This document shows, piece after piece, positions 17,109 through 37,723 of a stretch of DNA of 64,000 nt (positions are counted from its first letter, which is position 1; every line of letters begins with the position of its first letter). The DNA comes from a bacterium (lineage in GTDB: Bacteria; Hydrothermota; UBA3073; JACQXS01; JAQTXJ01), in assembly GCA_028716385.1 (NCBI GenBank), contig JAQUPX010000001.1, forward strand, positions 282,775-346,774, written 5' to 3'. Below the pieces are notes generated by a model that saw only the letters and a program-made list of their open reading frames with translations, searched no databases and was not told the DNA's origin. Position numbers and translations under genes: made by a program.

Positions 17109-18596
17109 TTACTTCACAACTACTATTTTCGATGTGCAGTTTTGTCCGCAAGCGGACAGTCTTGCGAGGTATACGCCGGAGGTAAACCCTGTCGGCGTCC
17201 ATTCTAATGTATATTCACCGGGAACCTTATTTGTGTTTAAAAGAGTTTTAACCAATTCGCCTGCAGTGTTATATATCCTTAAACATACATCGGAATTTTT
17301 TGGTATGGAGTATCTGAAAAGTAATTTGTGGTTAGAGAGTTGTGCATATAATCTAGGCGTTTCCCGAGAATAAACTTTTTCCTGAACACCGGCTATACAT
17401 CCTCCATCCAGGACTTTCAAAATTCCTGTTCCTCCGATTACCACTTCCAATTGCCCGTCCCCGTCTACGTCTCCGATTGAAGGGTCGCTGTCTCCGGCAG
17501 AACTATTGCCAAATTCCCATAGAAGAGTTCCGTCATTATTGAGTCCGCGTATTATTGTATCGTTAGAGGCAAATACTATTTCGGGTTTATCGTCACTGTC
17601 CAAATCGCCAATCGCAGGGCATGACCATATGTGACTTCCCGTTGCATAACTCCAGAGCACTGAGCCATCTTCACCGTTGAGAGCGTAAAAGTTGAAATCA
17701 TCGGAGCCAAATACTATTTCAGGTTTAGTGTCGTTATCCAAATCTGCAATCGCAGGGGAAGAGCGTACGGAACCTCCTGTCGTCGTGTAGCTCCAAAGTA
17801 AAGAACCGTCTTCTCCGTTGAGAGCGTAGAAATCGAATGAGCCGACAACTATCTCGAGTTTAGTATCGTTATCCAAATCTGCAATCGCCGGGGAAGCGCT
17901 AACTCCTATTGGATAACTCCAGATAAGCGAACCATCTTCACCATTAAGAGCATATAATTTATTGTCGCCAAGAACTACCTCAAGTTTAGTATCGTTATCC
18001 AAATCCGCAATTGCAGGCGAAGACCATATGTAACTTCCCGTTGCATAACTCCAGAGTACTGAGCCGTCTTCACCGTTGAAAGCGTAGAACGTATAATCCA
18101 GGGAGCCAACAGCTATTTCAGGTTTACTATCGTTATCCAAATCCGCAATCGCGGGGGAAGACATTACCCGATTTCCTGTCTTATAACTCCAGAGCAGGGA
18201 GCCGTCTTCAGTATTGAGGGCATAAAGTTGGCTGTCATAGGAGCAGACAACCACCTCGAGTTTAGTGTCCCCGTCTAAATCCCCAAGTGCAGGGCAAGAG
18301 CATATTTTACCCGACGTTGTATAGCTCCATATTACTGAACCGTTTTCTCCATTGAAATTATATATTTTATTGTCTATGTCATTACCGGAAATTATTTCAG
18401 GGATGTTATCATTATTTATGTCTACAATTGCAAATTTAGCGAATCCCTCGTTAGGGGTTTGCCATTTGATTCTCATAGAATCGGAAGTTAAGCATCCTTT
18501 GAGTTCAGGTTGAAAACCAGTATTTTGCAGGTCATGATGGAATTTCAGCCATTCTCCGGGCAAGGTCAAAAGGCAAATAAGAAATATATTCAACAT
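17109..18596 (-). CDS. propeller-repeat (PQQ-like / FG-GAP-like) protein with T9SS C-terminal tail; inverted paralog of 29316-30824
   Basis: 495 aa; repeating IADLDNDTKxEVVxGSxDxxLYALNGEDGSxLWSYxTG units; C-terminal sorting tail; N- and C-terminal regions about 80-90 percent identical at nucleotide level to 29316-30824 on the other strand. Confidence 0.65.
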   Translation of the reverse strand: MLNIFLICLLTLPGEWLKFHHDLQNTGFQPELKGCLTSDSMRIKWQTPNEGFAKFAIVDINNDNIPEIISGNDIDNKIYNFNGENGSVIWSYTTSGKICSCPALGDLDGDTKLEVVVCSYDSQLYALNTEDGSLLWSYKTGNRVMSSPAIADLDNDSKPEIAVGSLDYTFYAFNGEDGSVLWSYATGSYIWSSPAIADLDNDTKLEVVLGDNKLYALNGEDGSLIWSYPIGVSASPAIADLDNDTKLEIVVGSFDFYALNGEDGSLLWSYTTTGGSVRSSPAIADLDNDTKPEIVFGSDDFNFYALNGEDGSVLWSYATGSHIWSCPAIGDLDSDDKPEIVFASNDTIIRGLNNDGTLLWEFGNSSAGDSDPSIGDVDGDGQLEVVIGGTGILKVLDGGCIAGVQEKVYSRETPRLYAQLSNHKLLFRYSIPKNSDVCLRIYNTAGELVKTLLNTNKVPGEYTLEWTPTGFTSGVYLARLSACGQNCTSKIVVVK

Positions 18597-19221: not shown

Positions 19222-19602
19222 CTATTTGTCTCTTTTCGTAGCAGTTTTTCTCTTAAGGAATTCGACACTCCCGGAAATGATATTAGCGAAGCCCAGAATC
19301 CATCCAATAGGGTACGGCAAAACCGTAAGCCCCCACCACCACGAATGTGCGCCGGGACCAAATCCTCCGACAGCGCTCCATCCAAACAATGCTCCGACTC
19401 CTACTGCTATCATAATAAAAATAAATCTCCAGTAACGGAACAAACTGCGCCGGTTTTTATCAAGGAACGTACCGAACAAAACCATACCGCTGGCGGGAAG
19501 GATAAGCAGAGAGCCTTCCAGGGGATCCACGATTCCGAGTATCATAAAAATACTGCCAACAACAATCATAACCCGCGACCATTTCATAATGTTAATTTCC
19601 AA
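19222..19602 (-). CDS. small multi-pass membrane protein (hypothetical)
   Basis: 126 aa with three to four hydrophobic helices (IVVGSIFMILGIV, MVLFGTFL, FIFIMIAVGVGALFGW, LTVLPYPIGWILGFANII); overlapping plus-strand ORFs have no such features. Confidence 0.4.
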   Translation of the reverse strand: MEINIMKWSRVMIVVGSIFMILGIVDPLEGSLLILPASGMVLFGTFLDKNRRSLFRYWRFIFIMIAVGVGALFGWSAVGGFGPGAHSWWWGLTVLPYPIGWILGFANIISGSVEFLKRKTATKRDK

Positions 19603-20172: not shown

Positions 20173-22224
20173 TCACCAAAAGAACAGATACCTCACCTTC
20201 GCAACGGCGACTCTATCCGTCAATTCCATATCGTCTTCGACGTTGTCTATGGTTTGGTTAAACGCCAGATACACCCACGACTTCGGTCTGAAGTTATAAG
20301 AAATAAGCGCATTAAATTTATGTATATGCGTATCGGTATTCGGCTCTGCGTATATCCTCAATTGCATATCCTTTGTAAGCGCATACTGTACGGTCGGCAG
20401 TAAAATCGAAGCTATTGCCACGCTATCATTATTCGGAGTCCATTCAAAAGTGTTTGACAGGACAAGTGAAAAACTTAAAGACGGATTGACTTTCCAGTCT
20501 ACAATAAAGTCATTCGTTCCGGTTGATGCAAAATACTTTTTCCTGTAATTAAAACCATAACTCTTATACCACACCTCTTCGTTTAAGACAAAAGCCTTGC
20601 TGAAATCGGTATATAAGCAAACGCTCAGACGGGAGTAATCATACTCCGTATTCATTTCATATCCTTTACCTTTGTAAACGTTTATGTGTCCCCCGTAATT
20701 ATTCTTAAAGCAAGGGCTGACGCGCGCGCTAATCCAATTCCCGCCCGGATTGCCGGCTTTTTGTGTTCCGCCTGCTCCCGCGCAAGCCACGAATTTACGA
20801 AAAGGTCCCTTGTTAAAAAATTGCGGTCCCGCCATAAGAGAATATATCTTGTACCCGACATACGGAGCAAACCCGATTTCCCCGACATCGAAACTTGTAT
20901 CATAATTTTCGTACCCTGCCAGCACCAGAAATTTCGGCGCATACCAATTCAGAGCTATCTCCTCCGCATACCCGCTGTCCGATTTCGCCACCTCTGCGGC
21001 ACATTGCAGTTGATGCGTTCGGAACATCCCGTCTATCCCCATTACTTTCTGGTTGTTAAAACTGCTGTCCCCGCTGACTCCCGAATAAGTAAACCCTATG
21101 TCCGAATTTTTCAGGATGCCCATTTTTATCCTTCCCACGGAGTATAAATTTCTAGGTTCAAACCAATCTTCTCCCGGCGAAATGCTGTCCGTGTACGCCG
21201 ACAACATTCCGAATTTTACTCTCCCCAGCGACCCCGTATATTTTGCCCCGCCCAAAATCGGGACTTCACCTTCGGGCAATTTTTTGCCTATCCTACGGGA
21301 ATAGAAAAGTGTTATCGGAGTGGCGAAGACTTCCTGCGATTCGATAAAAAACGGCCGTCTTTCGTCGAGATAAAGTTCGTACTCGGAAAGGTTAATCGTA
21401 TAAGGGTCTGCTTCTATTTGCGCAAAATCCGGCAGCATCGTAAGCGAAAGCTGCGACGAAGTAAACCCCCAACCGACGTCCAGTCCTGCCTGCGGGCGAA
21501 GGATTAAAGTATCTCTATCCTCAAGGGTCTTTCCCAATTCGTATCTTACAAGTCCCACGGGATAAACTTCAAGGTTCAGTCCCTGTCTGGTGTTCGGGAT
21601 TCCTTTGAGCGCTCCACTTCTGGAAACACGCATCCCTTCTACCTGTTTAAGGGGCGCCCACGATACGCTCTCGCTATTTTTTGAAATATATCTAAAGAAG
21701 TTGACGCCCCATTCATCGAGTCCTTGTTTAAACCGTAATGTTTTGAAAGGTATTTTCATTTCCGCGACATACCCGTATTTCGTAACTTTAGCCACCGAGT
21801 ACCAGACTCCGTCCCAGCTTACGTCGTCTGCTCTTCCGTCCTGGGAAATTTTTTCATCGTATTGCACGCCTGCGGCGTTCAGCATAAATTCGTAAGCAGT
21901 AGTTTTATCGCCAAAAGTATCGAATATAATTCCGACGTTATCTTCGTTATAGAAATAATCTCTCGGCACTTTTTTAATATTTAAGCTTTTCGGGTCGGCG
22001 TCAAAACACTTAAATGCGATATAAATATTTTTATCATCGCAACAGATGTAGACTTTAGTGGATTCGGAAGGAGACGCTCCCTCGTCCGGGTCACTCTGGA
22101 CGAAGTTTTGAACGGAGTCTGCGTTCTGCCAGACCGAGTCAATTTTTCCGTCAATAACCGGCGGAGTGGTAACTTTCGGTATGTTTACGACACTTCCAAG
22201 GCTTAAAAAAAGTAATAGCAACAT
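20173..22224 (-). CDS. predicted outer-membrane protein: N-terminal CBM9/DOMON-like domain plus C-terminal beta-rich region (DUF5916-like)
   Basis: 683 aa; signal-like N-terminus; DGKIDSVWQNA...IYIAFKCFD...DxVxIxFDTFxDxxTAYxF motif block; ends in aromatic ...RYLFFW as in many outer-membrane barrels. Confidence 0.5.
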   Translation of the reverse strand: MLLLLFLSLGSVVNIPKVTTPPVIDGKIDSVWQNADSVQNFVQSDPDEGASPSESTKVYICCDDKNIYIAFKCFDADPKSLNIKKVPRDYFYNEDNVGIIFDTFGDKTTAYEFMLNAAGVQYDEKISQDGRADDVSWDGVWYSVAKVTKYGYVAEMKIPFKTLRFKQGLDEWGVNFFRYISKNSESVSWAPLKQVEGMRVSRSGALKGIPNTRQGLNLEVYPVGLVRYELGKTLEDRDTLILRPQAGLDVGWGFTSSQLSLTMLPDFAQIEADPYTINLSEYELYLDERRPFFIESQEVFATPITLFYSRRIGKKLPEGEVPILGGAKYTGSLGRVKFGMLSAYTDSISPGEDWFEPRNLYSVGRIKMGILKNSDIGFTYSGVSGDSSFNNQKVMGIDGMFRTHQLQCAAEVAKSDSGYAEEIALNWYAPKFLVLAGYENYDTSFDVGEIGFAPYVGYKIYSLMAGPQFFNKGPFRKFVACAGAGGTQKAGNPGGNWISARVSPCFKNNYGGHINVYKGKGYEMNTEYDYSRLSVCLYTDFSKAFVLNEEVWYKSYGFNYRKKYFASTGTNDFIVDWKVNPSLSFSLVLSNTFEWTPNNDSVAIASILLPTVQYALTKDMQLRIYAEPNTDTHIHKFNALISYNFRPKSWVYLAFNQTIDNVEDDMELTDRVAVAKVRYLFFW

Positions 22225-22314
22225 AGTTTTCTATCTTTCTCTTTTAATGCAAAACATATCCGTTGTCAAAAAAACACCCTCAATTCTGTCCAAAATTCAT
22301 GAATCTTAGAATCT

Positions 22315-24177
22315 TTAGGTCTTCTCACTCAGTTGATTAAGCATTTTTTCCTGTGAAATTTTTACGGCCGCCATTTTTTCCCTTAATGCTGAATGTAGAT
22401 GGCTCCATGTTTCAAAATCACACTCTTCTCTAAGTTCACATTCATTACATCTAAAACATCTTGGGAGTTTTAGCCCGCTAAAAAAGTTGTATTCAATATT
22501 TTTAATAATTTTTTCTACTAATTGTTGCGAATAGAAAATCTCAAGTTTTTCTTTTGCCATTTTAGTATTATAATTCTTAAGCTTTTTTAAAACCAAATAA
22601 TCTCTTATCGCTGAAAAATAAGTAATTTCTTCCTCGTTGTTTTTTATATTTCCGGACGATAGTATATTAATAAATTTTTGCAATTCATATATCGCTTTTT
22701 TATATGAACCGGTAACTAAATGCAAAAACGAAAGTAGTAAAACAGGATTTATTCTGCTCCATTGAGAATCCCATTTACGCAAAGGGAGCCATGTAAAAGG
22801 GAGGATATTATTTATTTTATAGGGAGTCTTATATACGCTGTTGTTAACCAGTTCTTTGATTTCTTTGAATTCATCAATTTTTCTTTTATCTAAATCTATA
22901 AATAAATTATTTTTTTCTATTTTTTCTTTATGTAATTCTAACTCCTTCCATGAAGCTCTTCTGGAGTTAGTCCCCGGTACAATAACTTGATAACTTGGAA
23001 ATCCCAAAAAAGATACATCTCTTATAAATATAGGTCCTTTTGTTGCTCTATGTAATATATTACACATACGTTGATAGTGTAGTTTATTGTTAAATTTGTT
23101 ATTTGTGTTTGCCGACAAAGTACTATTATAAGATGGTTTTCCAAAGAAAAAACTGTTTGGATAAGCACCGTCATTCGTTTTTAGCAAGTTAAAAAAGTTG
23201 TTAGACCATCCGCCATTATTAATTTTTTGTTCGAATAATAAATCTTTTAAGTTTACTTTCGTTCCGCTTTTGTAGTCCAAAATATGTCTACCTTGAAATG
23301 TTTCTGTAATGGCGCGGGAAATAGCCTCATCTATATTAGGATGCGACCCAAAATTTACATGGTAGCTGCCTTTCCTTTTATCGTGCGCTATGACAGCAAC
23401 AACAGGCAACGCCATATTTAGAGAACAATCTTTAATTGAAATATGGAAATTACTATTTTTTTCTATTTCCTCAATCATAATCTTTAAGTGTGGGGAACGA
23501 GATATACAACTTTTGTTTAATTCCGGGGGAGTTAATTGCTTGTGGTAAATAACATCCATACAGTGCCTTTCACTTACTTCGCTCATCCCTTGCACCAATG
23601 CTTCGTAAATATTATTCCCGGCGCACATCCCCGTAGAACCATAATGATACCTTATCATCTCCAATGGCAAAAAAACAATTTTTCCGCTAATCACATCCGC
23701 AAATGGAATGCATAGCAATTTTCCTTCGTATGAAAAAAAATCCAGCCATTTTTCGGCATCCCCTTTCTGTCTGTCACACGGAGCAAAATTTCTTAACAAA
23801 TTCTTGTCGACAGACTTAACAAATTGGCGCGGTGTTAAAAATATTTCATCCGGGGAATAAATAAAATCAGAAATCTTATGCAGTGTTTTATAGTTTAATA
23901 TAAAACTATTATGATTTGCGGTGTTGAATTGATTTTGTATTCTTTCCATTAGTTCCGCATAAGCGCTGGCAAGCGCCGCTTCTTTTGACATCCCCTTCCC
24001 GTTTGAACCAATAAAACTATCATTAAAACTAATGCGTACCGAATATAAAGAATCTCCATTCTTATACCACCTGTCTTCATTAATCAAAACTCCTATTTTG
24101 TAAAAAATGTTTCTTATACGAGTTATAGTTTCTATGGGTTTTACATCTTTATATAAAACTGTCTGAACCTTTTCCAT
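22315..24177 (-). CDS. ycaO: YcaO-domain protein, full-length E. coli YcaO-type
   Basis: 620 aa; SVRISFNDSFIGSNGKGMSKEAALASAYAELMERIQNQF matches the YcaO ATP-binding core (GKG...AxxSAxxExxER); further blocks YHYGSTGMCAGNNIYEALVQGMSEVSERH and FGSHPNIDEAISRAITETFQGR line up with E. coli YcaO along its length. Confidence 0.85.
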   Translation of the reverse strand: MEKVQTVLYKDVKPIETITRIRNIFYKIGVLINEDRWYKNGDSLYSVRISFNDSFIGSNGKGMSKEAALASAYAELMERIQNQFNTANHNSFILNYKTLHKISDFIYSPDEIFLTPRQFVKSVDKNLLRNFAPCDRQKGDAEKWLDFFSYEGKLLCIPFADVISGKIVFLPLEMIRYHYGSTGMCAGNNIYEALVQGMSEVSERHCMDVIYHKQLTPPELNKSCISRSPHLKIMIEEIEKNSNFHISIKDCSLNMALPVVAVIAHDKRKGSYHVNFGSHPNIDEAISRAITETFQGRHILDYKSGTKVNLKDLLFEQKINNGGWSNNFFNLLKTNDGAYPNSFFFGKPSYNSTLSANTNNKFNNKLHYQRMCNILHRATKGPIFIRDVSFLGFPSYQVIVPGTNSRRASWKELELHKEKIEKNNLFIDLDKRKIDEFKEIKELVNNSVYKTPYKINNILPFTWLPLRKWDSQWSRINPVLLLSFLHLVTGSYKKAIYELQKFINILSSGNIKNNEEEITYFSAIRDYLVLKKLKNYNTKMAKEKLEIFYSQQLVEKIIKNIEYNFFSGLKLPRCFRCNECELREECDFETWSHLHSALREKMAAVKISQEKMLNQLSEKT

Positions 24178-24224
24178 AGTTTTAACTAATTCCCCTCATC
24201 TCCCTATCCGCCTTATTCTTTTCT

Positions 24225-24651
24225 TTTAATCTCTCCAATCTATTACCAACCCTTGATTTATCTAGGGATGGTTATCCAGCTCTGCTGGAAAATCTCCAAT
24301 CCAAAATCCAAAATCTATTACTTGCCTGCCCCGTACATTTATTGCACAGGGGCGCTCACTTGGTAGCCGCAAGCTTTAGCTTGCGCCTGTCCACCTTTTG
24401 TTTTGGCGGAAAGCGGGGAAGAATCTCGTTTTTCCCCTTCGCCCTTTGCTCTTCTCGCTCCTCCGTATCTCCCCAATTCGCATTCCAAAATCTTTTTTTT
24501 CAGTATCTTTTAATTCCCCAATTCCTTCTTTTAATCCGTTCAATCCCCAATCCCTGCCTACCGGTCAGGCAGGCAAAATCTAAAATCTATTACCAGCCCT
24601 TGAGTTATCTAGGGATGGTTATCCAGCTCCGCTGTGGCTGGAAAATCCGCC
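24225..24651. repeat. repeat-rich intergenic region containing remnants of T9SS-linker coding sequence
   Basis: Two copies of CTATTACCxxCCCTTGAxTTATCTAGGGATGGTTATCCAGCTCxGCTG (about 24235-24290 and 24585-24640); AATCCAAAATCCAAAATC and CCCTGCCTACCGGTCAGGCAGGCAAAATC blocks match coding sequence at 33585-33625; GGTAGCCGCAAGCTTTAGCTTGCGC hairpin at about 24360. Confidence 0.45.
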
Positions 24652-26370
24652 CTATCCCTCGTTTTCTATTGTTTGAAATAAATGCTGGTATAAGATATTC
24701 GTTTGTATCAATTCTCTGTGCGTCCCCGATGTAACAAAATTCCCCTTATCAAGAACTATCGTCCTGTCCGCTAAAAGCATCGTTTCTTTTGAATGACTGA
24801 TAACTATCGTTATTCTGTCGTCTTTGCCGTCTATTAAAACATTATGTATCGCTTTAATGTTGTTCGCATCAAGTCCTGCCGTGGCCTCATCCAACAGCAA
24901 TACGTCCGGTTTTTTTAGAAAAGCCCGCGCTATCGCCAGCCTCTGTTTTTGCCCGCCACTCAGATTTCCACCGCTTTCATTAAGTTTATGATTCAACCCG
25001 TCTTCTAATTGATTAATGAATTCCATTGCCTGGGCCCTTTTTAGAACAGTATCAATTTCTTCATCGGTTGAATTTAACTTGCCCATAGAAATGTTCTCTT
25101 TTATCGTTGCTAAAAATAAAAAAGGCGCCTGTTGCACTATTGCTATTTTATTCCGATACGAATCCAGGGATATTGAATTGATGTTAATGCCGTTTGCGCT
25201 TATCTCACCTTTCTCCGGCATATATACCCGCTGCAATAACTTAAATATCGTCGTTTTCCCCGCCCCGCTTTCCCCTACTAATGCTATGATTTCACCTTTC
25301 TTTGCGCTGAAAGAAACATTCTTAAGACCAAAATCATCCTTTTCGGAATATGAAAAACAAACTTCTTTAACGTTGAGCGTTTCTATGCTTTCAATATCAA
25401 TGCCTTCTTTCTTCTCCTGCTCTATAGAGAATAATTCCTGCACTCTTTTTATACAACTTTTCCCCGTTTGAAGAGATATGTTAAGATTCGTTAACCCGGA
25501 CGTTGAACTGAATACTTGCACCATAAGCATATTAAACGCAAAGAAACTGCCAAAAGTAAGCTCCCCTTTAATTATCAGGTATCCCCCCAGCCATATTAAT
25601 ACGACCTTCCCCAGGGTCGAACTTAGTTGCCCCAGCACAGATGGCTTGCAGGAATATACGAACCGTTCAATTGCAATATTAAACAACTCTGTTAATTTTT
25701 TAGCATACCTGCTTATAATTTCTTTTTCTGCTCCTAAATATTTTATTTCCAGACGCCCGGAAATGATTTCGTTCAAATAAAAAGTATTATTTGCTTTCTT
25801 CTCCAGCATTTTTATCGTTCTCTGGTTCATCCCGCGATTAAATAGCTTTAAAGAAATGGCAAAAATCGGGAGTATACTGAAAAACACTAAAGATAACGTA
25901 AGATTAAACTTCGCAATGATTATCACGCTAACTACAAGCGTAATCGCATCTTTTGTTAAATTTAACATATCGTCTATAAAAAACGTATTAACTCCTTCCA
26001 AATCTCCCTCTATTCGTCCCGTAAGATATCCCGACCCTTTTTGAGATAATTCTTTCCAGTTGGAATTAATAATTCGTCCCAATAATATTGACTTTAAATA
26101 GTTCCCGAAACCATACTTCAGGCAATTTGCCATATAAGTATCAAAAATGCTTATCCCTATAAGGCAAACTTGAGCAGCCAATATCGCAATAGCCCATTTT
26201 GTTAAAAGAAGATAGTCTTTAGAAGGCAAAACAATATCAAGGATATGTTTTGTCAGGAGCGGAATTATAACGACTAAAGCGACTTTCAATATGTTCCCAA
26301 CAACAATAAGTAGTGATGATGAAAAAGCAATCCCAAAAAAATATTTACCTGCTAATTTTCTTACTTTCAT
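24652..26370 (-). CDS. ABC exporter, fused permease-ATPase (no N-terminal C39 peptidase domain)
   Basis: 572 aa; N-terminal half with multiple hydrophobic helices; Walker A GESGAGKTT, signature LSGGQKQRLAIARAF, Walker B VLLLDEATAGLD; start overlaps the rSAM stop by 4 nt. Confidence 0.85.
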   Translation of the reverse strand: MKVRKLAGKYFFGIAFSSSLLIVVGNILKVALVVIIPLLTKHILDIVLPSKDYLLLTKWAIAILAAQVCLIGISIFDTYMANCLKYGFGNYLKSILLGRIINSNWKELSQKGSGYLTGRIEGDLEGVNTFFIDDMLNLTKDAITLVVSVIIIAKFNLTLSLVFFSILPIFAISLKLFNRGMNQRTIKMLEKKANNTFYLNEIISGRLEIKYLGAEKEIISRYAKKLTELFNIAIERFVYSCKPSVLGQLSSTLGKVVLIWLGGYLIIKGELTFGSFFAFNMLMVQVFSSTSGLTNLNISLQTGKSCIKRVQELFSIEQEKKEGIDIESIETLNVKEVCFSYSEKDDFGLKNVSFSAKKGEIIALVGESGAGKTTIFKLLQRVYMPEKGEISANGININSISLDSYRNKIAIVQQAPFLFLATIKENISMGKLNSTDEEIDTVLKRAQAMEFINQLEDGLNHKLNESGGNLSGGQKQRLAIARAFLKKPDVLLLDEATAGLDANNIKAIHNVLIDGKDDRITIVISHSKETMLLADRTIVLDKGNFVTSGTHRELIQTNILYQHLFQTIENEG

Positions 26371-27731
26371 AGTTTGTCCTTATAGATGAGTTTCATTATC
26401 CCACACTGGTATTCATCCGGAGTATATAAATTGCCGTTTGCCAATAAAGCAGCCCCCGGACACATTTTACAATAATTCTTTATACTACATATATTACACG
26501 TTTTCAAATCGTCTACTTTAATATTATGATGCATTCTTATTTCATCACTTCCCCATATCTCATCTATTGATTTGTTTCTAATGTTTTGACTCCCGTACCT
26601 CAATGTTGCACACGGGAAAACGTTCCCCTTAGCATCTATTGCAAAACTATAAGCTCCGGAATAACAATTTGCTGAATTTGGCCCCCTAATATCCTCTTCT
26701 TGTTGCAAACTCTCTCTTCCCACTTTGTTAATTAACCAATCAATCTGTGATAAAGAACAGAAAACATTTTGATTCATATTTCTATACAATCCTTTTCTCA
26801 TTTGGGTAATGTCGTAAGTATATCTTAAACCATAAGATGCGCATAATTTTTCCATTGCGGGAATCTGCCGGTAATTCATCGCCAAAACTGGGGTTTTAAT
26901 ACGGATGCGCATATTAGTTTTAGAAAGTATGGGAAGTAAAGTTTTTATATGCTCTGAGGCAGTTACTCCGCAAATCTCTTTATAAGTTTTTTCATTAGCT
27001 CCCAAAACGCTAATTTCTAACTTGTATACCCCAAGAGATTCCAAATGTTTTATAAGAGCCTTATTCAATAAATACCCATTTGTAAAAACTACTACTGCAA
27101 AATTTCTATCTATTGCCATCTTTATAATATTAAGAAAATCTTTTCTTATAAGAGGTTCTCCCCCTGAAATTGTAACTCTTAAACACTTTTTTTCTTTGAG
27201 CCAATTTAATATCTCTATAATTTCATTTAGTGAAAGGTCTTCGGATGTTTTTGATTTTTTACTTGGTATTTTGTTATAGCAATGTATACATTGGAAATTG
27301 CACATAGATGAAACCTCTATAAATGCCGACATAGGAAGTTTTTCTCCGGCATATAATCTACGTATTTTCTTAGAATCTAATATCTGCTTAGCATTAAATA
27401 GTTTTTCATTTTTGTTTGATTGGGATTTCATTATTTGTTCTTTATCAACAAACAAAATACTTTCGGCATTTAACCAATTTATTATTAATTTTATATTATC
27501 AACAATAAACTTGTGCGATATAATTATTTTCTTTTTATACGCTAAAGAAATTATATTTTTTTCAATCTTATTCTTGCTATTACCTTTTAAAAAAGAGTAT
27601 ACTATTAGTGCCCCAATTCCATTTATAAGGCTATAGCTATCTGTTTTTTTATTAAAAACAATTGCTTGATTTAGATTTTTAAAATATCTACAAATAAAAA
27701 TCTTATTTAATCTCGACATTTTTAGTCCCAT
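26367..27731 (-). CDS. radical SAM enzyme with C-terminal SPASM domain and ~130-aa N-terminal extension (possible peptide-recognition, RRE/PqqD-like)
   Basis: 454 aa; CNFQCIHC (CxxxCxxC) cluster; glycine-rich SAM motif VTISGGEP; C-terminal Cys cluster CNICSIKNYCKMCPG typical of SPASM; N-terminal region before the rSAM core is a small alpha/beta unit. Confidence 0.8.
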   Translation of the reverse strand: MGLKMSRLNKIFICRYFKNLNQAIVFNKKTDSYSLINGIGALIVYSFLKGNSKNKIEKNIISLAYKKKIIISHKFIVDNIKLIINWLNAESILFVDKEQIMKSQSNKNEKLFNAKQILDSKKIRRLYAGEKLPMSAFIEVSSMCNFQCIHCYNKIPSKKSKTSEDLSLNEIIEILNWLKEKKCLRVTISGGEPLIRKDFLNIIKMAIDRNFAVVVFTNGYLLNKALIKHLESLGVYKLEISVLGANEKTYKEICGVTASEHIKTLLPILSKTNMRIRIKTPVLAMNYRQIPAMEKLCASYGLRYTYDITQMRKGLYRNMNQNVFCSLSQIDWLINKVGRESLQQEEDIRGPNSANCYSGAYSFAIDAKGNVFPCATLRYGSQNIRNKSIDEIWGSDEIRMHHNIKVDDLKTCNICSIKNYCKMCPGAALLANGNLYTPDEYQCGIMKLIYKDKL

Positions 27732-27780
27732 CAGTATTTTACTTTTTTAATACATTATAAAATTAATAATCTACTCCTTG

Positions 27781-27803
27781 TGTACACCTGTAAAAGGTGT
27801 ACA
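27781..27803 (-). terminator. perfect 9-bp-stem hairpin between small ORF and rSAM gene (possible attenuator)
   Basis: TGTACACCT-gtaaa-AGGTGTACA, 17 nt downstream of the small-ORF stop and about 50 nt upstream of the rSAM start. Confidence 0.4.
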
Positions 27804-27819
27804 CAAGGATGCAATACAA

Positions 27820-27963
27820 TTACATAAGGACCATTGTACAATTATCCGTCATGTCAGTTTCATCTTCATTCAATCTACTAGGCCCTATACGTCTTGCTAA
27901 TTTCCCTGGTGTTGTCCCAGCCTCAATAGTTACGGTACTTTCAATTTTTGTTAGTTCAAACAT
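27820..27963 (-). CDS. unannotated 47-aa ORF, candidate precursor peptide
   Basis: Minus-strand ATG at 27963 with AAGGAGGTGA 8 nt upstream; translation MFELTKIESTVTIEAGTTPGKLARRIGPSRLNEDETDMTDNCTMVLM; stop TAA at 27820-27822; sits directly 5' of the rSAM-ABC operon on the same strand; below the 60-aa track cutoff. Confidence 0.35.
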   Translation of the reverse strand: MFELTKIESTVTIEAGTTPGKLARRIGPSRLNEDETDMTDNCTMVLM

Positions 27964-27990
27964 TTTTTCATCACCTCCTTTTTCACATAG

Positions 27991-28073
27991 CAATCACTTT
28001 AAATGTATGTCAAGAGAATTGCAAGAAAAAATCCTAGTAAAATATTAGGATTTCTAGTAAAATATTAGTATCC
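27991..28073 (-). promoter_or_regulatory. promoter/operator module with tandem direct repeats (CTAGTAAAATATTAG x2), -35-like TTGACA and a TTTAAAGT box
   Basis: Minus-strand reading: TTTTACTAGAAATCCTAATATTTTACTAGGATTTTTTCTTGCAATTCTCTTGACATACATTTAAAGTGATTGC, just upstream of the RBS of the small ORF; about 80 percent identical to 61715-61794. Confidence 0.45.
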
Positions 28074-28272
28074 CTTTCGCCCCCATTTTTCCCTGAAATA
28101 CCCATTGTCCCCCATCTTTCAGAGAAATTTCTGCTAACCGGTTCTAAACTTTAAAAAATACTTATTTCCCTTTACAAATCGAATTTTTCCACCCCATAAA
28201 ATCTATTTCGCCGGCGGCGGAAATACTAAAACGTTTGAAAAATTTATACGGGAACAGAAAAAACCGCAGAAC

Positions 28273-29046
28273 CTAAAACGCTTTTTGTCCCAGAATAGTC
28301 ATATTGAAAGAATTAGTATTGAATTTGTTTTCTTCAAGATTAGGATTGACCGAATCGCCATAGACTGCCTTAATGCTGATGTTGACTTCGCGAAACATTT
28401 TTTCTATGTCCCCATAAGAATAAACTTTAATTTTTTGTTTGGGGTATTCGTATGAATTATTCCCTTCAATAACTGTCGTGTTGACGGTAAAAATACTTTG
28501 CAAAACATCAAAAGCGTTCTCTACTATAAAAGTTTTTTCCCCGATTTTATACCTGTCTTTTTTTAGCAGCTTCGGAATATATTGCAAGTTAAATAAATCC
28601 AGAAGTAAATGTCCCTGCGGTTTTAACAAACCCGATATGAGATTTAGCGCCTTCATATTTTCTTTGTCCGACAAAAGACCGAAACTGATGTCCATCATAT
28701 AGACAGCATCAAACCTACACTTGAAACAAGGCGAAAGCATATCCCCGCAAACAAAAGAAGCGCTTAACTTCTTTCTCCCTGCCTCTGCCATTCCGGATTT
28801 TAAAAGCACAAAAGAGTAATCCATCCCTACGACGTTTTCGTATTTCCTTTTCGCAAATTCTATAATATGTCTTCCGTCCCCACATCCTAAATCCAACACC
28901 GCCGTTTCTTTACGTATATTCAAAACTTTTTCAAGGAAGTCCGTCTGGGCAACTGTCACGGCAAGGGATTCTCTCCACCCGTTTTCATACCTGAGCGCGT
29001 AAAGCTCCTTCCACCATTCCTTTGAATATCCTTTTTTCATTGTCAT
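28273..29046 (-). CDS. class I SAM-dependent methyltransferase
   Basis: Motif I VLDLGCGDGRH and downstream acidic/hydrophobic motifs; track ORF extends to 29199 but the likely start is MTMKKGYSK at 29046. Confidence 0.7.
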   Translation of the reverse strand: MTMKKGYSKEWWKELYALRYENGWRESLAVTVAQTDFLEKVLNIRKETAVLDLGCGDGRHIIEFAKRKYENVVGMDYSFVLLKSGMAEAGRKKLSASFVCGDMLSPCFKCRFDAVYMMDISFGLLSDKENMKALNLISGLLKPQGHLLLDLFNLQYIPKLLKKDRYKIGEKTFIVENAFDVLQSIFTVNTTVIEGNNSYEYPKQKIKVYSYGDIEKMFREVNISIKAVYGDSVNPNLEENKFNTNSFNMTILGQKAF

Positions 29047-29278
29047 CTTAAAACCCCAACCTAACTCACTTTCATCGGTTGAAGCGGTCCCCCAAAGCAC
29101 TACATTAACATACAAATAACACAATTTAAAGTTGTGTCTACAATTACTTTTTTCGGCACGCAAGATGTCCCATTTAAAATCCTGACTGCCGTCAGGCAAG
29201 TTATCGGACTATGCCCATTCTGCTTTCCTTTTTTAAAAATATTGTAGGGACAGCCTCCCCAAAAAAAATGCTTATTCC

Positions 29279-29315: not shown

Positions 29316-30824
29316 ATGTTAAACATTTTTCTTATCTGTCTTCTCAACCTCCCCGGCGAATGGCTCAAATTCCATCACGACCTCCAAAACACAGGTTTCC
29401 AATCTGAACTCAAAGGATGCTTAACTCCTGACTCCGTCAGAATCAAATGGGAAACTCCTAATTTGGGATTCGCCAAATTCACAATTGTAGATATAAATAA
29501 TGACGGCATTCCTGAAATAATTGCCGGTAATTACTATGACTATTCAATATATAATTTCAAAGGGGAAGACGGTTCGGTAATATGGAGTTACGAAACAGGA
29601 AGCAAAGTGTCCTCTACTCCTGCGATTGCAGATTTGGATAACGATACTAAACTTGAGATACTTGTTGGCTCAAGGGATTATAATTTATACGCTCTCAAGG
29701 GTGAAAATGGGACACTGCTCTGGAATTATACAACAGGAGGTTCTGTGTATTCTTCGCCAACGATTGCGGATTTAAATAACGACAGTAAACTTGAGGTAGT
29801 TGTTGGCTCTGGCGATTTTACACTATATACGCTCAACGGAGAAGATGGTTCTCTACTCTGGAGTTATACAACAGGAGGGAGTATAATATCTTCACCTGCA
29901 ATTGCGGATTTGGATAACAACGCTAAACTTGAGGTAGTTGTTGGGTCCGATGATTCTACGCTGTATGGCCTAAATGGAGAAAATGGCTCACTACTCTGGA
30001 GCTATAAAACAGGAAATTGCATAGAGTCTTCGCCGGCAATTGGGGATTTGGATAACGACACTAAACCTGAAGTAGTTTTTGGCTCTGTGGATTCGACGTT
30101 GTATGCTCTCAATGGCGAAGATGGCTTACTACTCTGGAGTTATACAACAGGAGGTTCCGTATACTCTTCGCCGGCAATTGGGGATTTGAATAACGACAGT
30201 AAACTTGAGGTAGTTGTTGGATCATTTGACCATAAACTGTATGCTCTCAATGGAGAAGATGGCTCATTGCTCTGGAGTTATGGAACAGAGAATTGGATAT
30301 ACTCCTCGCCAGCAATTGGGGATTTGGATGGTGATGGGAAACTTGAGATAGTATTTGCCTCTTGTGATACAATAACAACAGTATACGGACTCAACGACGA
30401 TGGCACTCTTCTATGGACATTTAACATTTATTCTGCTGGAGACAGCGACCCTTCAATCGGAGATGTAGACGGTGACGGACAACTAGAAGTAGTAATCGGG
30501 GGAACGGGTTATTTAAAAGTTCTGGATGGAGGATGCATAGCCGGCGTTCAGGAAAAAATTGATTCTAAAGAAACCCCTAAACTCCATACACAAATCTTCG
30601 GGCGCAAATTACTTTTCAGATACTCCATACCAAAGAAATCCGACGTCTGTTTACGAATATATAACACTGCAGGCGAATTAGTTAAGACTCTTTTAAACAC
30701 AAATAAAGCCCCCGGTGAATATACATTAGAATGGACGCCGACAGGTTTTGCCTCAGGCATCTACCTTGCAAGACTATCCGCTTGCGGAGCAAACTGCACG
30801 TCAAAAATAGTAGTCGTGAAGTAG
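29316..30824 (+). CDS. propeller-repeat (PQQ-like / FG-GAP-like) protein with T9SS C-terminal tail; inverted paralog of 17109-18596
   Basis: 502 aa; same repeat architecture and near-identical first ~60 and last ~100 residues as 17109-18596. Confidence 0.65.
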   Translation: MLNIFLICLLNLPGEWLKFHHDLQNTGFQSELKGCLTPDSVRIKWETPNLGFAKFTIVDINNDGIPEIIAGNYYDYSIYNFKGEDGSVIWSYETGSKVSSTPAIADLDNDTKLEILVGSRDYNLYALKGENGTLLWNYTTGGSVYSSPTIADLNNDSKLEVVVGSGDFTLYTLNGEDGSLLWSYTTGGSIISSPAIADLDNNAKLEVVVGSDDSTLYGLNGENGSLLWSYKTGNCIESSPAIGDLDNDTKPEVVFGSVDSTLYALNGEDGLLLWSYTTGGSVYSSPAIGDLNNDSKLEVVVGSFDHKLYALNGEDGSLLWSYGTENWIYSSPAIGDLDGDGKLEIVFASCDTITTVYGLNDDGTLLWTFNIYSAGDSDPSIGDVDGDGQLEVVIGGTGYLKVLDGGCIAGVQEKIDSKETPKLHTQIFGRKLLFRYSIPKKSDVCLRIYNTAGELVKTLLNTNKAPGEYTLEWTPTGFASGIYLARLSACGANCTSKIVVVK

Positions 30825-31697: not shown

Positions 31698-33131
31698 TCA
31701 CTTTATTAGTACCATTTTCTTTGTCTCTTTAAAATTATTAGTTGTCACCCTCACAAAATATACCCCACTCTTTTTTATATTCGGCGTAAACACATAATCC
31801 CCTTTGCTTAATGCTCCATTGTAAATAACCTCTTTCGTTCTCCCGCACAAATCGTAAATTTTCAATTCCGCATTTATACTCTTTGGCACGCTCAAATAAA
31901 TCTTATCTTTTATTATTTCCATTTTTGATATTTGATTTTTGATTTTTGATTTCTCCTCTATCCCTACCTTAACATATTTTAATGCAAGCGAATAGTTCCA
32001 TCCTGCCGAAATTGCAGTAACGCCTGTCAGGAGGCTTGTCTGGACAGGCTGATTACGCTGGGTGCCGGTAGAATCTCCAAGCTGTCCATAACCGTTCTGC
32101 CCCCAAGCCCATACGGTACTGTCGGATTTTATTAATGCGAGTGAATGTTCCCCTCCTGCTGAGATTGCAACGGCATTGGTCAGATTAAGTGTCTGCAAGG
32201 GCACGGAATGAGGATTATAATCACTACTTCCGATACCAAGCTCCCCATAGCCGTTATATCCCCAAGCCCATACGGTTCCGTCAGGCTTTAATGCGAGTGA
32301 ATGCGCGCCCCCTGCTGAGATTGCAATAACACCGGTCAGGAGTTTTACCTTGACAGGCTGATTATTCTGGGTGGTGGTAGAATCTCCAAGCTGTCCGTAG
32401 TAGTTATATCCCCAAGCCCAGACTGTACTGTCAGACTTTAACGCAAGTGAATGGTGACCTCCCGCTGAAATTGCAACGACATTCGTCAAAAGATTTGTCT
32501 GGACAGGTACGAAATGAGTATTGTAATCGCTACTTCCGATACCAAGCTGTCCGGAGCCGTTATATCCCCATGCCCAGACGGTTCCGTCAGATTTTAACGC
32601 AAGTGAATGCGAACCTCCCGCAGAAATTGCAATAACATTCGTAAGAAGTTTTGTTTGCACAGGATAACGGCGATAGGCAGTAACAGTAGAATCTCCAAGC
32701 ACTCCGGAACCATTACTTCCCCAAGCCCAGACAATGCTGTCAGATTTTAAAGCAAGTGAATGCGAACCTCCCGCAGAAATTGCAACAACATTAGTCAAGA
32801 ACTTTGTCCGGACAGGATTATATCTATAATAAAAAGTAGTAGAATCTCCAAGCTGTCCGTAGGCATTATATCCCCACGCCCAGACAGTGCTGTCATAGTT
32901 TATGGCAAGCGAAAAGTCATATCCTCCTCCGCCTTTTCCTGCACAGATTGCAAGAACATTAGTCAAGATTTTTGTCCGGACGGGTTGATTCCGTTGCCAA
33001 GTATTAGTAGAATCTCCAAGCTGTCCCCAGTCATTACTTCCCCATGCCCATACATTTTCATCGGCTTTTGCGACACCTGCGCTTCCTGCTATCAACAGGC
33101 TTACGACCCACATAAAACTTTGTTTCTTCAT
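31698..33131 (-). CDS. RCC1-repeat propeller protein with T9SS C-terminal tail
   Basis: 477 aa; seven-plus repeats of VWAWGxNxYGQLGDST...GGxHSLALKSDxTV; C-terminal sorting tail. Confidence 0.7.
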   Translation of the reverse strand: MKKQSFMWVVSLLIAGSAGVAKADENVWAWGSNDWGQLGDSTNTWQRNQPVRTKILTNVLAICAGKGGGGYDFSLAINYDSTVWAWGYNAYGQLGDSTTFYYRYNPVRTKFLTNVVAISAGGSHSLALKSDSIVWAWGSNGSGVLGDSTVTAYRRYPVQTKLLTNVIAISAGGSHSLALKSDGTVWAWGYNGSGQLGIGSSDYNTHFVPVQTNLLTNVVAISAGGHHSLALKSDSTVWAWGYNYYGQLGDSTTTQNNQPVKVKLLTGVIAISAGGAHSLALKPDGTVWAWGYNGYGELGIGSSDYNPHSVPLQTLNLTNAVAISAGGEHSLALIKSDSTVWAWGQNGYGQLGDSTGTQRNQPVQTSLLTGVTAISAGWNYSLALKYVKVGIEEKSKIKNQISKMEIIKDKIYLSVPKSINAELKIYDLCGRTKEVIYNGALSKGDYVFTPNIKKSGVYFVRVTTNNFKETKKMVLIK

Positions 33132-33345
33132 CTTTCCCCCTTAGAAACTCTTATTTTTTTATGTTTAGAGTTTCTTATCAGTGTTTCTGCATTAGTTGGA
33201 CTTTCCCGCTCCGCCTGAGGCGGACGGATTAGACCAACTTATCAGTGTTCCTGGCTTTATCAAATTCCCGGCAAATCCGGGTTTTTTTTATTTTGCTTTC
33301 TGTTCTGTCATTGTCATCCCGCACTTGATGCGGGATCCATTGTTT

Positions 33346-34407: not shown

Positions 34408-34414
34408 AACTTTA

Positions 34415-36040: not shown

Positions 36041-36048
36041 TTTATTTC

Positions 36049-37638: not shown

Positions 37639-37723
37639 TTTTCCTCCCCTCCTCCGATATTTTTTCTGTTATTTGTTTTATTTGTCTTATTCGTCCTATA
37701 TGACTTATATGTCTTATCTTTTC

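What the first reader, a model, noticed from the sequence alone, without database searches (positions are those of the whole stretch)
20173..29199. Candidate RiPP-type peptide maturation/export cluster: methyltransferase, small peptide, rSAM-SPASM, ABC exporter, YcaO, outer-membrane protein
On the minus strand, a class I methyltransferase (28273-29046), a 47-codon ORF with a strong RBS (27820-27963), a radical-SAM enzyme with CxxxCxxC and SPASM Cys clusters and an N-terminal extension (26367-27731), a translationally coupled ABC exporter (24652-26370), a YcaO protein (22315-24177) and an outer-membrane-type protein (20173-22224) are colinear. rSAM-SPASM enzymes with N-terminal recognition domains and YcaO enzymes are both established peptide-backbone and side-chain modifiers, and a dedicated exporter and methyltransferase are common companions. 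This exact combination in a T9SS-rich uncultivated lineage is not a cluster type I recognise. The functional link is inferred from gene order only.
Basis: partly seen in the sequence, partly recalled or inferred. Interest (0 to 1): 0.9.

Follow-up and report, generated by a model that had tools for sequence, protein, structure and literature searches.

The report
Rare radical-SAM/YcaO modified-peptide gene cassette
A four-gene cassette (small precursor peptide, radical-SAM enzyme with its own peptide-binding domain, ABC exporter, E. coli-type YcaO) that almost certainly makes and exports a modified peptide; it belongs to a known general kind but to a very rare, uncharacterised family.

Summary
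Four form a real unit: the 47-aa ORF, the rSAM-SPASM, the ABC exporter and the YcaO. The same four genes, in the same order, occur in an unrelated metagenome contig (L007). A third contig (L035) carries peptide plus rSAM before it ends.

The three peptides share MF[ED]xTxIExT at the N-terminus and an invariant T-D-N-C four to five residues from the C-terminus. Each is followed by a strong hairpin.

The rSAM's N-terminal extension is a PqqD-like peptide-recognition domain, by predicted fold, profile comparison and relatives with PqqD. Its best structural matches are the peptide maturases SkfB, CteB, SuiB and PqqE, not sulfatase maturases.

The YcaO has the full-length fold of E. coli YcaO plus a C-terminal CxxCxxCx5C motif. 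Its closest relatives all sit next to RiPP genes.

The methyltransferase and the DUF5916 protein are absent from the other loci and differ in codon composition, so their membership is not shown.

An rSAM + YcaO + exporter peptide cluster already has a characterised precedent, the Bacteroides itf cluster. The chemistry here remains unknown. This is a rare new variant of a known kind.

The parts
27820..27963 (-). Precursor peptide gene (47 aa). Conserved N-terminal MFExTxIExT is the presumed leader/recognition part. Invariant T39-D40-N41-C42, five residues from the C-terminus, is the presumed core.
   Evidence: Sequence and RBS. Homologous ORFs in L007 and L035. Alignment A7. The motif occurs only in these ORFs among all loci fetched. 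The ORF is not annotated in the NCBI record.
27772..27813 (-). Stable hairpin directly after the precursor stop codon. Presumed partial terminator or mRNA stabiliser that raises the precursor-to-enzyme ratio.
   Evidence: Free energy -28.1 kcal/mol, z = -6.2. Equivalent hairpins with unrelated sequence in L035 (z = -7.3) and L007 (z = -5.5).
26367..27731 (-). Radical-SAM/SPASM peptide maturase (454 aa) with a fused N-terminal RRE.
   Evidence: Pfam. Below the cut-off of every curated NCBIfam family. PDB by sequence, SkfB best. AF2 model. Foldseek top hits SkfB, CteB, SuiB, PqqE. 42% identical over full length to the L007 enzyme.
27456..27698 (-). RRE (PqqD-like winged helix, residues 12-92 of the rSAM).
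   Evidence: Predicted three strands then three helices, pLDDT 82-90. hhalign against PqqD-type domains, probability 90%, E = 1.5e-6. Distant full-length relatives carry Pfam PqqD above the gathering score at the same position. The closest shorter relatives have a separate PqqD gene just upstream.
24652..26370 (-). ABC exporter half-transporter (572 aa, TMD-NBD, no peptidase domain), translationally coupled to the rSAM by an ATGA overlap.
   Evidence: 46% identical to the L007 ABC protein.
24178..24651 (.). Repeat-filled spacer between the ABC and YcaO genes. Two 56-nt direct repeats (24232-24287 and 24579-24634) flank a REP-like palindrome (24366-24386). Probably a secondary insertion, because ABC and YcaO overlap in L007.
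22315..24177 (-). E. coli-type two-domain YcaO (620 aa) with conserved ATP-site motifs. Presumed ATP-dependent activator of a backbone amide in the precursor.
   Evidence: Pfam and NCBIfam. PDB 4q84 by sequence and by profile, 1.1e-97. AF2 pLDDT 88.5. Foldseek TM 0.74-0.82 to 4q84-4q86. The close clade sits in RiPP contexts.
22420..22458 (-). C-terminal CxxCxxCx5C motif of the YcaO (C574, C577, C580, C586). Candidate Zn or Fe-S site, absent from the part homologous to E. coli YcaO.
   Evidence: Nearly invariant in 30 family members. It lies beyond the stretch aligned to 4q84. No Pfam match.
28273..29046 (-). Class I SAM methyltransferase, adjacent and co-directional. Membership of the cassette is not shown.
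   Evidence: Pfam. No counterpart in L007 or L035. GC3 0.43 against 0.26-0.30 for peptide, rSAM and YcaO.
20173..22224 (-). DUF5916/CBM9 protein (683 aa), outer-membrane-like, 90 bp downstream of the YcaO. Membership of the cassette is not shown.
   Evidence: Pfam. No counterpart in L007. GC3 0.49. Spacer sequence.

Best explanation
The core of the finding is a four-gene RiPP cassette.

1. The 47-aa precursor is made in excess. This is inferred from its strong RBS and the hairpin after its stop codon.
2. Its conserved N-terminal segment (MFExTxIExT) is bound by the PqqD-like recognition domain fused to the radical-SAM/SPASM enzyme. The domain is shown by fold and profile; the binding is inferred.
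3. The rSAM enzyme uses its SAM cluster and two auxiliary clusters to abstract a hydrogen. It then installs a crosslink or other C-H functionalisation in the invariant (H/M)-T-D-N-C motif near the C-terminus. The most likely reaction is a thioether from the single invariant cysteine to a nearby carbon, as in SkfB, CteB and PapB. This is inferred, and the chemistry is unproven.
4. The stand-alone E. coli-type YcaO uses ATP to activate a backbone amide in the same C-terminal region. Candidates are an ItfB-like amidine, or a thiazoline at Asn-Cys if the rSAM does not use the cysteine. This is inferred.
5. The translationally coupled ABC half-transporter exports the product. It has no peptidase domain, so any leader removal is done elsewhere or not at all.

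The neighbouring methyltransferase and DUF5916 protein are local neighbours, at most host-specific accessories. The cassette is patchily distributed and probably horizontally acquired.
For: **Conserved synteny**
- L007 carries peptide, rSAM (42% identity, full length), ABC (46%) and YcaO (37%) in the same order. The rSAM and ABC genes are 2 nt apart, and ABC and YcaO overlap by 20 nt.
- L035 carries peptide plus an rSAM fragment.

**Precursor**
- Ten residues are invariant across the three peptides, including T-D-N-C.
- A hairpin follows the stop codon in all three loci, z = -5.5 to -7.3.

**RRE**
-, plus a separate PqqD gene next to the closest shorter relatives.

**rSAM type**
- SkfB is the best PDB match by sequence.
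- SkfB, CteB, SuiB and PqqE lead the fold search at E about 1e-14, and anSME ranks 41st.
- The seven SPASM cysteines are conserved.

**YcaO**
- ATP-site motifs are conserved, with full-length homology to E. coli YcaO.
- Every close relative examined (37-50% identity) sits in a RiPP context: B12-rSAM neighbours; carbamoyltransferase + NHLP + LanM; six GG-leader precursors with a C39-ABC and HlyD; or this same cassette.

**Precedent**
- The itf cluster (PMC11002830).
Against: - No product has been observed and the chemistry is entirely inferred.
- Only two complete loci and one partial locus exist. The two searches of 5.8e9 clusters found only the window's rSAM and the L007 one as full-length members. 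The scan of 1.84e9 representatives added three close fragments. Conservation statistics are therefore thin.
- In the window the YcaO is separated from the ABC gene by 474 bp of repeats, so co-transcription here is uncertain.
- The RRE does not hit Pfam PqqD directly.
- More distant members of the YcaO family (about 30% identity) are orphans in housekeeping contexts.
- No protease for leader removal is present.
- The composition argument for horizontal transfer is weak, because the cassette GC lies at the low end of the window's range, not outside it.
Confidence: 0.8

Rival explanations
1. The full six-gene cluster proposed by the first reader is the functional unit. The methyltransferase methylates the peptide, and the DUF5916 outer-membrane protein carries the product across the outer membrane.
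For: - Both genes are co-directional with the core. The gaps are short: 90 bp from YcaO to DUF5916 and 309 bp from the methyltransferase to the peptide.
- No convincing terminator lies between them.
- Bacteroidales rSAM/YcaO clusters also carry an outer-membrane protein gene next to the exporter (PMC10352776; ItfF).
- A diderm host needs some route across the outer membrane.
Against: - Neither gene is present in L007.
- The gene upstream of the peptide in L035 is on the opposite strand.
- GC3 is 0.43 and 0.49 for these genes against 0.26-0.38 for the core.
- The methyltransferase matches only generic class I families.
- DUF5916 is not a TonB-dependent or TolC-type protein.
Confidence: 0.2
2. 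Only peptide, rSAM and ABC form the RiPP unit. The YcaO is an unrelated housekeeping protein of the E. coli type (accessory factor for RimO methylthiolation of ribosomal protein S12) that happens to lie downstream.
For: - The best NCBIfam match is YcaO_for_S12 and the fold is full-length E. coli YcaO.
- A 474-bp gap separates it from the ABC gene.
- Distant family members are orphans, one of them next to translation-related genes.
Against: - The NCBIfam score is 207 bits against a cut-off of 700.
- In L007 the orthologous YcaO overlaps the ABC gene of the same cassette.
- All five other close relatives examined sit beside RiPP genes or uncharacterised neighbours, none in a ribosomal or RimO context.
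- The gap is filled with repeat elements found elsewhere in the window, so it looks secondary.
Confidence: 0.05
3. The cassette makes a peptide-derived small molecule or cofactor, as in the mycofactocin and PQQ pathways, rather than an exported modified peptide.
For: MftC (83.5 bits, residues 126-429) and PqqE (residues 132-402) are the highest-ranked NCBIfam matches that extend beyond the radical-SAM core. PqqE is among the top structural matches. A conserved short C-terminal motif is typical of such precursors.
Against: - All scores are far below family cut-offs.
- A dedicated exporter is translationally coupled to the rSAM in both complete loci.
- No peptidase, oxidoreductase or other tailoring genes are conserved in the cassette.
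Confidence: 0.07
4. This is not a peptide system at all. The rSAM acts on a non-peptide substrate (sulfatase maturase, heme or cofactor type) and the small ORF is spurious.
For: The highest NCBIfam scores are to AhbD and NirJ (104 and 91 bits), but they cover only the rSAM core, residues 139-302.
Against: - The ORF is conserved with its RBS and hairpin in three loci.
- The rSAM has an RRE domain.
- anSME ranks low in the fold search.
Confidence: 0.02

Closest known systems
itf cluster of Bacteroides: ItfA precursor, ItfB YcaO, ItfD rSAM-SPASM, ItfE ABC/C39, ItfF outer-membrane transporter (Clark & Seyedsayamdost 2022, as summarised in PMC11002830 and PMC10352776)
   Same: - A small precursor with a conserved short C-terminal motif.
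- An rSAM-SPASM enzyme, a stand-alone YcaO and an ABC exporter in one cluster, in an FCB-group type of organism.
- The itf YcaO is described as fused to an Fe-S-type domain. The YcaO here carries a Cys4 motif.
- An outer-membrane protein gene lies next to the cluster.
   Different: - The ABC exporter here has no C39 peptidase domain and the precursor has no GG leader.
- The conserved motif is TDNC, not W..ITF.
- The neighbouring outer-membrane-like gene is DUF5916, not TonB-dependent, and is not conserved.
Thioether-forming rSAM-SPASM maturases with an N-terminal RRE or peptide-binding domain (SkfB, CteB; sactipeptides and ranthipeptides)
   Same: - Best sequence and structure matches.
- CX3CX2C plus a seven-Cys SPASM domain.
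- An N-terminal peptide-binding domain.
- An invariant Cys in the presumed core.
   Different: - Only 15-18% identity.
- Below the cut-off of every curated family.
- A single conserved Cys rather than several.
- Paired with a YcaO.
E. coli YcaO (PDB 4Q84-4Q86; NF040716, accessory factor for RimO methylthiolation of S12)
   Same: Full-length two-domain fold, TM 0.74-0.82. Profile match of 1.1e-97 over about 540 residues, with conserved ATP-site motifs.
   Different: - 207 bits against a cut-off of 700.
- An extra C-terminal CxxCxxCx5C motif.
- Embedded in a RiPP cassette rather than standing alone.
Split PqqD + rSAM pairs in uncharacterised peptide clusters (P0002 and P0003 loci, one with ScmC of the SynChlorMet cassette)
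   Same: These are the closest rSAM relatives outside the family, 28-33% identity. They have a PqqD gene immediately upstream, small ORFs beside them, and an ABC exporter in one case.
   Different: The RRE is a separate protein there. No YcaO is present. The small ORFs are unrelated to the precursor here.

Membership tests
RiPP biosynthetic gene cluster (generic) | Short precursor ORF next to the modifying enzyme, conserved among related loci | tested here: met
   Three loci with homologous 40-47 aa ORFs immediately upstream of the rSAM.
RiPP biosynthetic gene cluster (generic) | RiPP recognition element (PqqD-like winged helix) in or beside a modifying enzyme | tested here: met
   AF2 topology of three strands then three helices. 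hhalign probability 90%, E = 1.5e-6. Relatives carry Pfam PqqD at the same position. A direct Pfam hit is absent.
RiPP biosynthetic gene cluster (generic) | A post-translationally modified peptide product | not testable with these tools
   Needs expression and mass spectrometry.
rSAM-SPASM peptide maturases (sactipeptide/ranthipeptide type) | CX3CX2C SAM cluster plus a full seven-Cys SPASM domain | tested here: met
   C144, C148, C151 and C356, C374, C412, C415, C421, C424, C443 are all conserved with L007. Pfam SPASM.
rSAM-SPASM peptide maturases (sactipeptide/ranthipeptide type) | Score above the cut-off of a curated family model | tested here: not met
   All NCBIfam hits are far below their cut-offs, for example StsB 57 against 625 and MftC 83.5 against 265.
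rSAM-SPASM peptide maturases (sactipeptide/ranthipeptide type) | Cys-to-carbon thioether in the product | not testable with these tools
   There is one invariant Cys in the core. The reaction is unproven.
itf-type rSAM/YcaO RiPP cluster | rSAM-SPASM, YcaO and ABC exporter together with a precursor | tested here: met
   The family is described in PMC11002830.
itf-type rSAM/YcaO RiPP cluster | Peptidase-containing ABC transporter (C39) and a GG-type leader | tested here: not met
   No C39 domain; the transmembrane domain starts at about residue 20. No GG motif in the three precursors.
itf-type rSAM/YcaO RiPP cluster | YcaO and rSAM orthologous to ItfB and ItfD | not tested
   ItfB (UniProt A0A173ZJC6) could not be fetched.
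E. coli-type YcaO (NF040716, S12 methylthiotransferase accessory factor) | Full-length YcaO plus C-terminal helical domain fold with ATP-site motifs | tested here: met
   Foldseek TM 0.74-0.82 over about 620 columns. Profile match 1.1e-97.
E. coli-type YcaO (NF040716, S12 methylthiotransferase accessory factor) | Equivalog score at or above 700 bits | tested here: not met
   206.9 bits.
Azoline-forming cyclodehydratase YcaO (TOMM, TIGR03604) | Family score at or above 219 bits, an E1-like/Ocin-ThiF partner or fusion, and a C-terminal PxPxP motif | tested here: not met
   67.9 bits. No partner domain in the cluster. The C-terminus ...QLSEKT has no prolines.
Thioamide-forming YcaO-TfuA pair | Adjacent TfuA gene | tested here: not met
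   No TfuA among the genes at 17-33 kb of the window or in L007.
   anSME ranks 41st in Foldseek at E = 6e-8, against 1e-14 for SkfB, CteB and SuiB. It is absent from the 25 NCBIfam hits shown, out of 80.

The most novel reading that the evidence does not exclude
The cassette defines a new RiPP class in which an E. coli-type YcaO, carrying a Cys4 metal site, works as the obligate partner of a radical-SAM enzyme on one invariant T-D-N-C motif. One example would be a beta-thio-aspartate crosslink between Cys42 and Asp40. That product would parallel the beta-methylthio-Asp88 that RimO, a radical-SAM enzyme, installs on ribosomal protein S12 with the help of E. coli YcaO. If so, this small and portable system would give the first direct biochemical handle on what E. 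coli-type YcaO proteins do.
Probability: 0.1. Interest if true: 0.8.

Novelty: new variant of a known kind. Interest (0 to 1): 0.55.

Why it matters
The result is a defined four-gene unit that could be synthesised and expressed, with three natural precursor variants. It is ready for heterologous expression to find out what an rSAM-SPASM enzyme and an E. coli-type YcaO do to a conserved HTDNC motif.

The family is extremely rare in public data, and no curated model covers its rSAM or its precursor. New chemistry is therefore plausible.

It also shows that a subclade of the poorly understood E. coli-like YcaO proteins, marked by a conserved Cys4 tail, has been recruited repeatedly into RiPP clusters. 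That bears on the unresolved biochemical role of this YcaO type.

Tried and rejected
- **Pattern scans with the rSAM alignment.** Metagenome contigs, genome contigs and viral contigs returned only relatives at 24-33% identity over the rSAM core. None carried the cassette.
- **Direct Pfam search of the N-terminal extension.** No PqqD hit. BLASTP against a neighbour's PqqD protein was also negative. The RRE call rests on fold, profile comparison and transitive evidence.
- **Promoter and terminator scan.** Counts were no higher than in shuffled sequence, so no promoter is claimed.
- **Other libraries.** Rfam and tRNA scans found nothing. PADLOC gave only generic ABC, viperin-core and methyltransferase hits, so a defence system was rejected. 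A Pfam search of the Cys4 tail found nothing.
- **Comparison with ItfB.** The primary paper is not held, the sequence is not in the supplements, and the afdb50 library is unavailable.
- **Composition as evidence for horizontal transfer.** Only suggestive.
- **Rejected identities for the rSAM.** Sulfatase-maturase, viperin and heme-synthase identities were rejected, because those matches cover only the core or rank low.


Full report
**1. The observation**

Profile searches confirm each assignment.

- Methyltransferase (28273-29046): Methyltransf_25, 4.9e-16.
- rSAM (26367-27731): Radical_SAM 1.5e-19, SPASM 5.1e-08.
- ABC exporter (24652-26370): ABC_membrane plus ABC_tran, with no C39 peptidase domain.
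- YcaO (22315-24177): PF02624, 4.2e-52.
- 20173-22224: DUF5916 plus a CBM9-like domain.

The 47-codon ORF (27820-27963) encodes MFELTKIESTVTIEAGTTPGKLARRIGPSRLNEDETDMTDNCTMVLM. An AAAGGAGGTG Shine-Dalgarno sequence precedes its start codon. The rSAM stop and the ABC start overlap as ATGA.

Two details were not in the finding. First, 474 bp of non-coding DNA separate the ABC and YcaO genes. This spacer holds two 56-nt direct repeats around a palindromic element that also occurs three times near 16.6-17.0 kb. Second, the whole 18.6-29.3 kb segment lies between two inverted paralogous genes for T9SS beta-propeller proteins.

**2. Is the gene order meaningful?**

The decisive evidence is a second locus. 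The contig L007 was found through a YcaO relative with 37% identity. It carries, in the same order and on one strand:

- a 40-codon ORF;
- a 448-aa rSAM-SPASM, 42% identical over its full length including the N-terminal extension;
- an ABC exporter, 46% identical;
- the YcaO.

In L007 the rSAM and ABC genes are 2 nt apart, and ABC and YcaO overlap by 20 nt.

A third locus is the 1.4-kb contig L035. It carries a 40-codon ORF and the first 220-odd residues of a further rSAM, whose N-terminal domain is about 50% identical to the window's. The contig ends there.

The three small ORFs align as follows:

| Locus | Peptide |
|---|---|
| window | MFELTKIESTVTIEAGTTPGKLARRIGPSRLNEDETDMTDNCTMVLM |
| L035 | MFEPTEIEETVAENPDSRSGSISMGRNEVTDHTDNCTMCL |
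| L007 | MFDETVIETTDTTKGDVVWNSLCHFNEEVNHTDNCAATVP |

Invariant residues are M1, F2, T5, I7, E8 and T10, then T-D-N-C four to five residues before the end. Each ORF has a strong ribosome-binding site.

Each is also followed directly by a very stable hairpin. The free energies are -28.1, -30.7 and -25.3 kcal/mol, with z-scores of -6.2, -7.3 and -5.5. The hairpin sequences are unrelated to one another. This arrangement is usual for precursor genes of modified-peptide operons.

The TDNC motif occurs in no comparable ORF in any other locus fetched. The small ORF is therefore a real, conserved gene. It is absent from the NCBI annotation of the source MAG.

**3. The radical-SAM enzyme**

It has the CX3CX2C motif and a complete seven-cysteine SPASM domain, both conserved with L007. 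No curated NCBIfam model is reached.

SkfB is the best solved relative by sequence. An AlphaFold model (pLDDT 76, pTM 0.79) matches SkfB, CteB, SuiB and PqqE best, at E about 1e-14. The alignments with CteB and SuiB run to 467-489 columns, longer than the 454-residue query. Anaerobic sulfatase maturase ranks 41st.

Several lines identify the N-terminal extension as a PqqD-like RRE.

- It is predicted with pLDDT 82-90 as three strands followed by three helices, residues 12-92.
- Pfam does not detect PqqD in it directly.
- A profile of the three N-terminal domains matches a profile of PqqD-type domains with 90% probability and E = 1.5e-6 over 82 columns.
- More distant relatives that align over their full length carry Pfam PqqD above the gathering score at the same position.
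- The closest shorter relatives (P0002, P0003) have a separate PqqD gene immediately upstream, plus small ORFs and in one case ScmC and an ABC exporter.

**4. The YcaO**

Its AlphaFold model (pLDDT 88.5) superposes on E. coli YcaO over about 620 columns, with TM 0.74-0.82. The cyclodehydratases and the archaeal thioamidation enzymes reach only TM of about 0.4-0.45 normalised to the query.

A profile of 30 family members matches E. coli YcaO at 1.1e-97 over positions 10-553, and the nucleotide-site motifs are conserved. The equivalog model for the S12-accessory YcaO scores only 207 bits against a cut-off of 700.

The family has a nearly invariant C-terminal CxxCxxCx5C motif (C574, C577, C580, C586) that lies outside the region homologous to E. 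coli YcaO. It lacks three things:

- the PxPxP tail of cyclodehydratases;
- an E1-like partner;
- a TfuA partner.

The closest relatives, at 37-50% identity, all sit next to peptide-modification genes or in uninformative contexts:

- B12-type rSAM enzymes;
- a carbamoyltransferase, an NHLP-type precursor and a LanM;
- six paralogous precursors with a shared GG leader, plus a C39-ABC and HlyD;
- the same cassette in L007;
- two uncharacterised neighbours on a short contig.

More distant members, at about 30% identity, are orphans in ordinary contexts. The window's YcaO therefore belongs to a subclade of E. coli-like YcaO proteins that has been recruited to modified-peptide clusters.

**5. What belongs to the unit**

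The peptide, rSAM, ABC and YcaO genes are conserved together. The methyltransferase and the DUF5916 protein are not.

- L007 has neither.
- In L035 the gene upstream of the peptide is on the opposite strand.

Third-position GC separates the groups:

| Gene | GC3 |
|---|---|
| rSAM | 0.26 |
| peptide | 0.27 |
| YcaO | 0.30 |
| ABC | 0.38 |
| methyltransferase | 0.43 |
| DUF5916 | 0.49 |

The cassette values are at the low end of the window's range, not outside it. This is suggestive of acquisition, not proof.

In L007 the ABC and YcaO genes overlap. The 474-bp repeat-filled spacer in the window therefore looks like a later insertion.

The two flanking genes may still serve the cassette in this host. 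An outer-membrane protein beside the exporter is also seen in Bacteroidales rSAM/YcaO clusters. That remains untested.

**6. How it most likely works**

Shown:

- a conserved precursor;
- an rSAM-SPASM with a fused RRE;
- a coupled exporter;
- an ATP-site-intact YcaO of a RiPP-associated clade.

Inferred:

- the RRE binds the conserved N-terminal segment;
- the rSAM modifies the invariant (H/M)TDNC motif;
- the YcaO activates a backbone amide in the same region;
- the ABC half-transporter exports the product, and because it has no peptidase domain it does not remove the leader.

For the rSAM, the best guess is a thioether from the only invariant cysteine. The closest solved relatives by sequence and fold include SkfB and CteB, the entries for a RiPP maturase and for sactipeptide thioether-bond formation.

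For the YcaO, two candidates stand out:

- an ItfB-like amidine;
- a thiazoline at Asn41-Cys42, if the rSAM leaves the thiol free.

Thioamide formation is less likely because no TfuA is present. None of this chemistry can be decided from sequence.

**7. Comparison with what is known**

The nearest characterised system is the Bacteroides itf cluster. There an rSAM-SPASM (ItfD) makes a Trp-Ile C-C crosslink. [quoted passage not shown] The substrate is a precursor with a conserved C-terminal motif. An ABC/C39 transporter and an outer-membrane transporter lie alongside (PMC11002830; PMC10352776).

The present cassette shares the enzyme combination and the logic of a short conserved C-terminal motif. 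It differs in the precursor family, in lacking a GG leader and a C39 domain, and possibly in enzyme lineage. Direct comparison with ItfB and ItfD was not possible.

The combination is therefore not unprecedented, but this family is new. Two word-seeded searches of 5.8 billion clusters found only the window's and L007's proteins as full-length members. A complete HMMER scan of 1.84 billion representatives added three close fragments. Scores then drop from about 240 to about 200 bits, into more distant rSAM-SPASM proteins, most of them lacking the N-terminal extension.

**8. Verdict**

This is a rare, uncharacterised variant of the rSAM/YcaO class of modified-peptide clusters. I rate interest as moderate to fairly high, for three reasons:

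- the system is small and portable;
- it comes with three natural precursor variants;
- it involves the poorly understood E. coli-type YcaO.

Genome mining already yields many uncharacterised rSAM peptide clusters, and no chemistry is yet known for this one.

Noticed in passing
window 17109-18596 (-) and 29316-30824 (+): Two paralogous T9SS-tailed beta-propeller (FG-GAP/PQQ-like) genes lie in inverted orientation. Their ends are 84% complementary over 449 nt. They bracket the 10.7-kb segment that holds the cassette. They could mark an insertion or inversion site.
   Followed up: partly
window 16597-16617, 16677-16697, 16968-16988, 24366-24386; also 24232-24287 and 24579-24634: A REP-like palindromic element, GCCGCAAGCTTTAGCTTGCGC, occurs four times, one copy inside the ABC-YcaO spacer. 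There it sits between two 56-nt direct repeats 347 nt apart. The arrangement looks like a small mobile or repeat insertion that split an originally overlapping ABC-YcaO gene pair.
   Followed up: partly
window 28034-28048 and 28054-28068 (minus strand): A tandem direct repeat CTAATATTTTACTAG with a 20-nt period lies about 70-105 nt upstream of the precursor start codon. It is a candidate regulator-binding site.
   Followed up: no
window 27835-27844; L035 ~507-516; L007 ~4821-4828: The codons around the invariant Cys form a short DNA palindrome in all three precursors. It is ATTGTACAAT in the window and L035, and CTGCGCAG in L007. The palindrome is kept although the residue after Cys changes from Thr (ACA) to Ala (GCA). 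This may be chance.
   Followed up: no
window 22420-22458 (YcaO residues 574-586) and proteins P0024-P0134: A CxxCxxCx5C motif at the C-terminus is nearly invariant across the whole family of roughly 600-aa E. coli-like YcaO proteins. That includes orphan members in Sporomusa and Dehalococcoidia. It is not part of the region homologous to E. coli YcaO and has no Pfam match.
   Followed up: partly
L006 6741-7555 and 10354-11737: A YcaO 44% identical to the window's is surrounded by six paralogous precursors. They share the leader MARIKIEDLPKDMKISKEEMKKVVGG and have unrelated cores. A cNMP-binding C39-ABC transporter and an HlyD-type protein lie alongside.
   Followed up: partly
window 19222-19602 (-): A 126-aa hydrophobic, multi-pass membrane protein with no family match lies downstream of the DUF5916 gene. 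It could be unrelated, or it could be an immunity-type protein.
   Followed up: no
window 9074-11394 and 13545-15725: A stretch of about 2.3 kb has no ORF of 150 aa or more. The 10-12 kb composition window that overlaps it has low GC (0.34) and unusually high AT skew (0.25). It is followed by a PAS histidine kinase and a 726-aa protein with a C-terminal Peptidase_S74 (endosialidase chaperone) domain.
   Followed up: no
window 40-3651 and 31698-40268: The window is dense in secreted proteins with T9SS C-terminal sorting domains (RCC1 repeats, beta-helix, beta-propellers). This fits an FCB-group organism. The source MAG is labelled only 'bacterium' at NCBI.
   Followed up: partly
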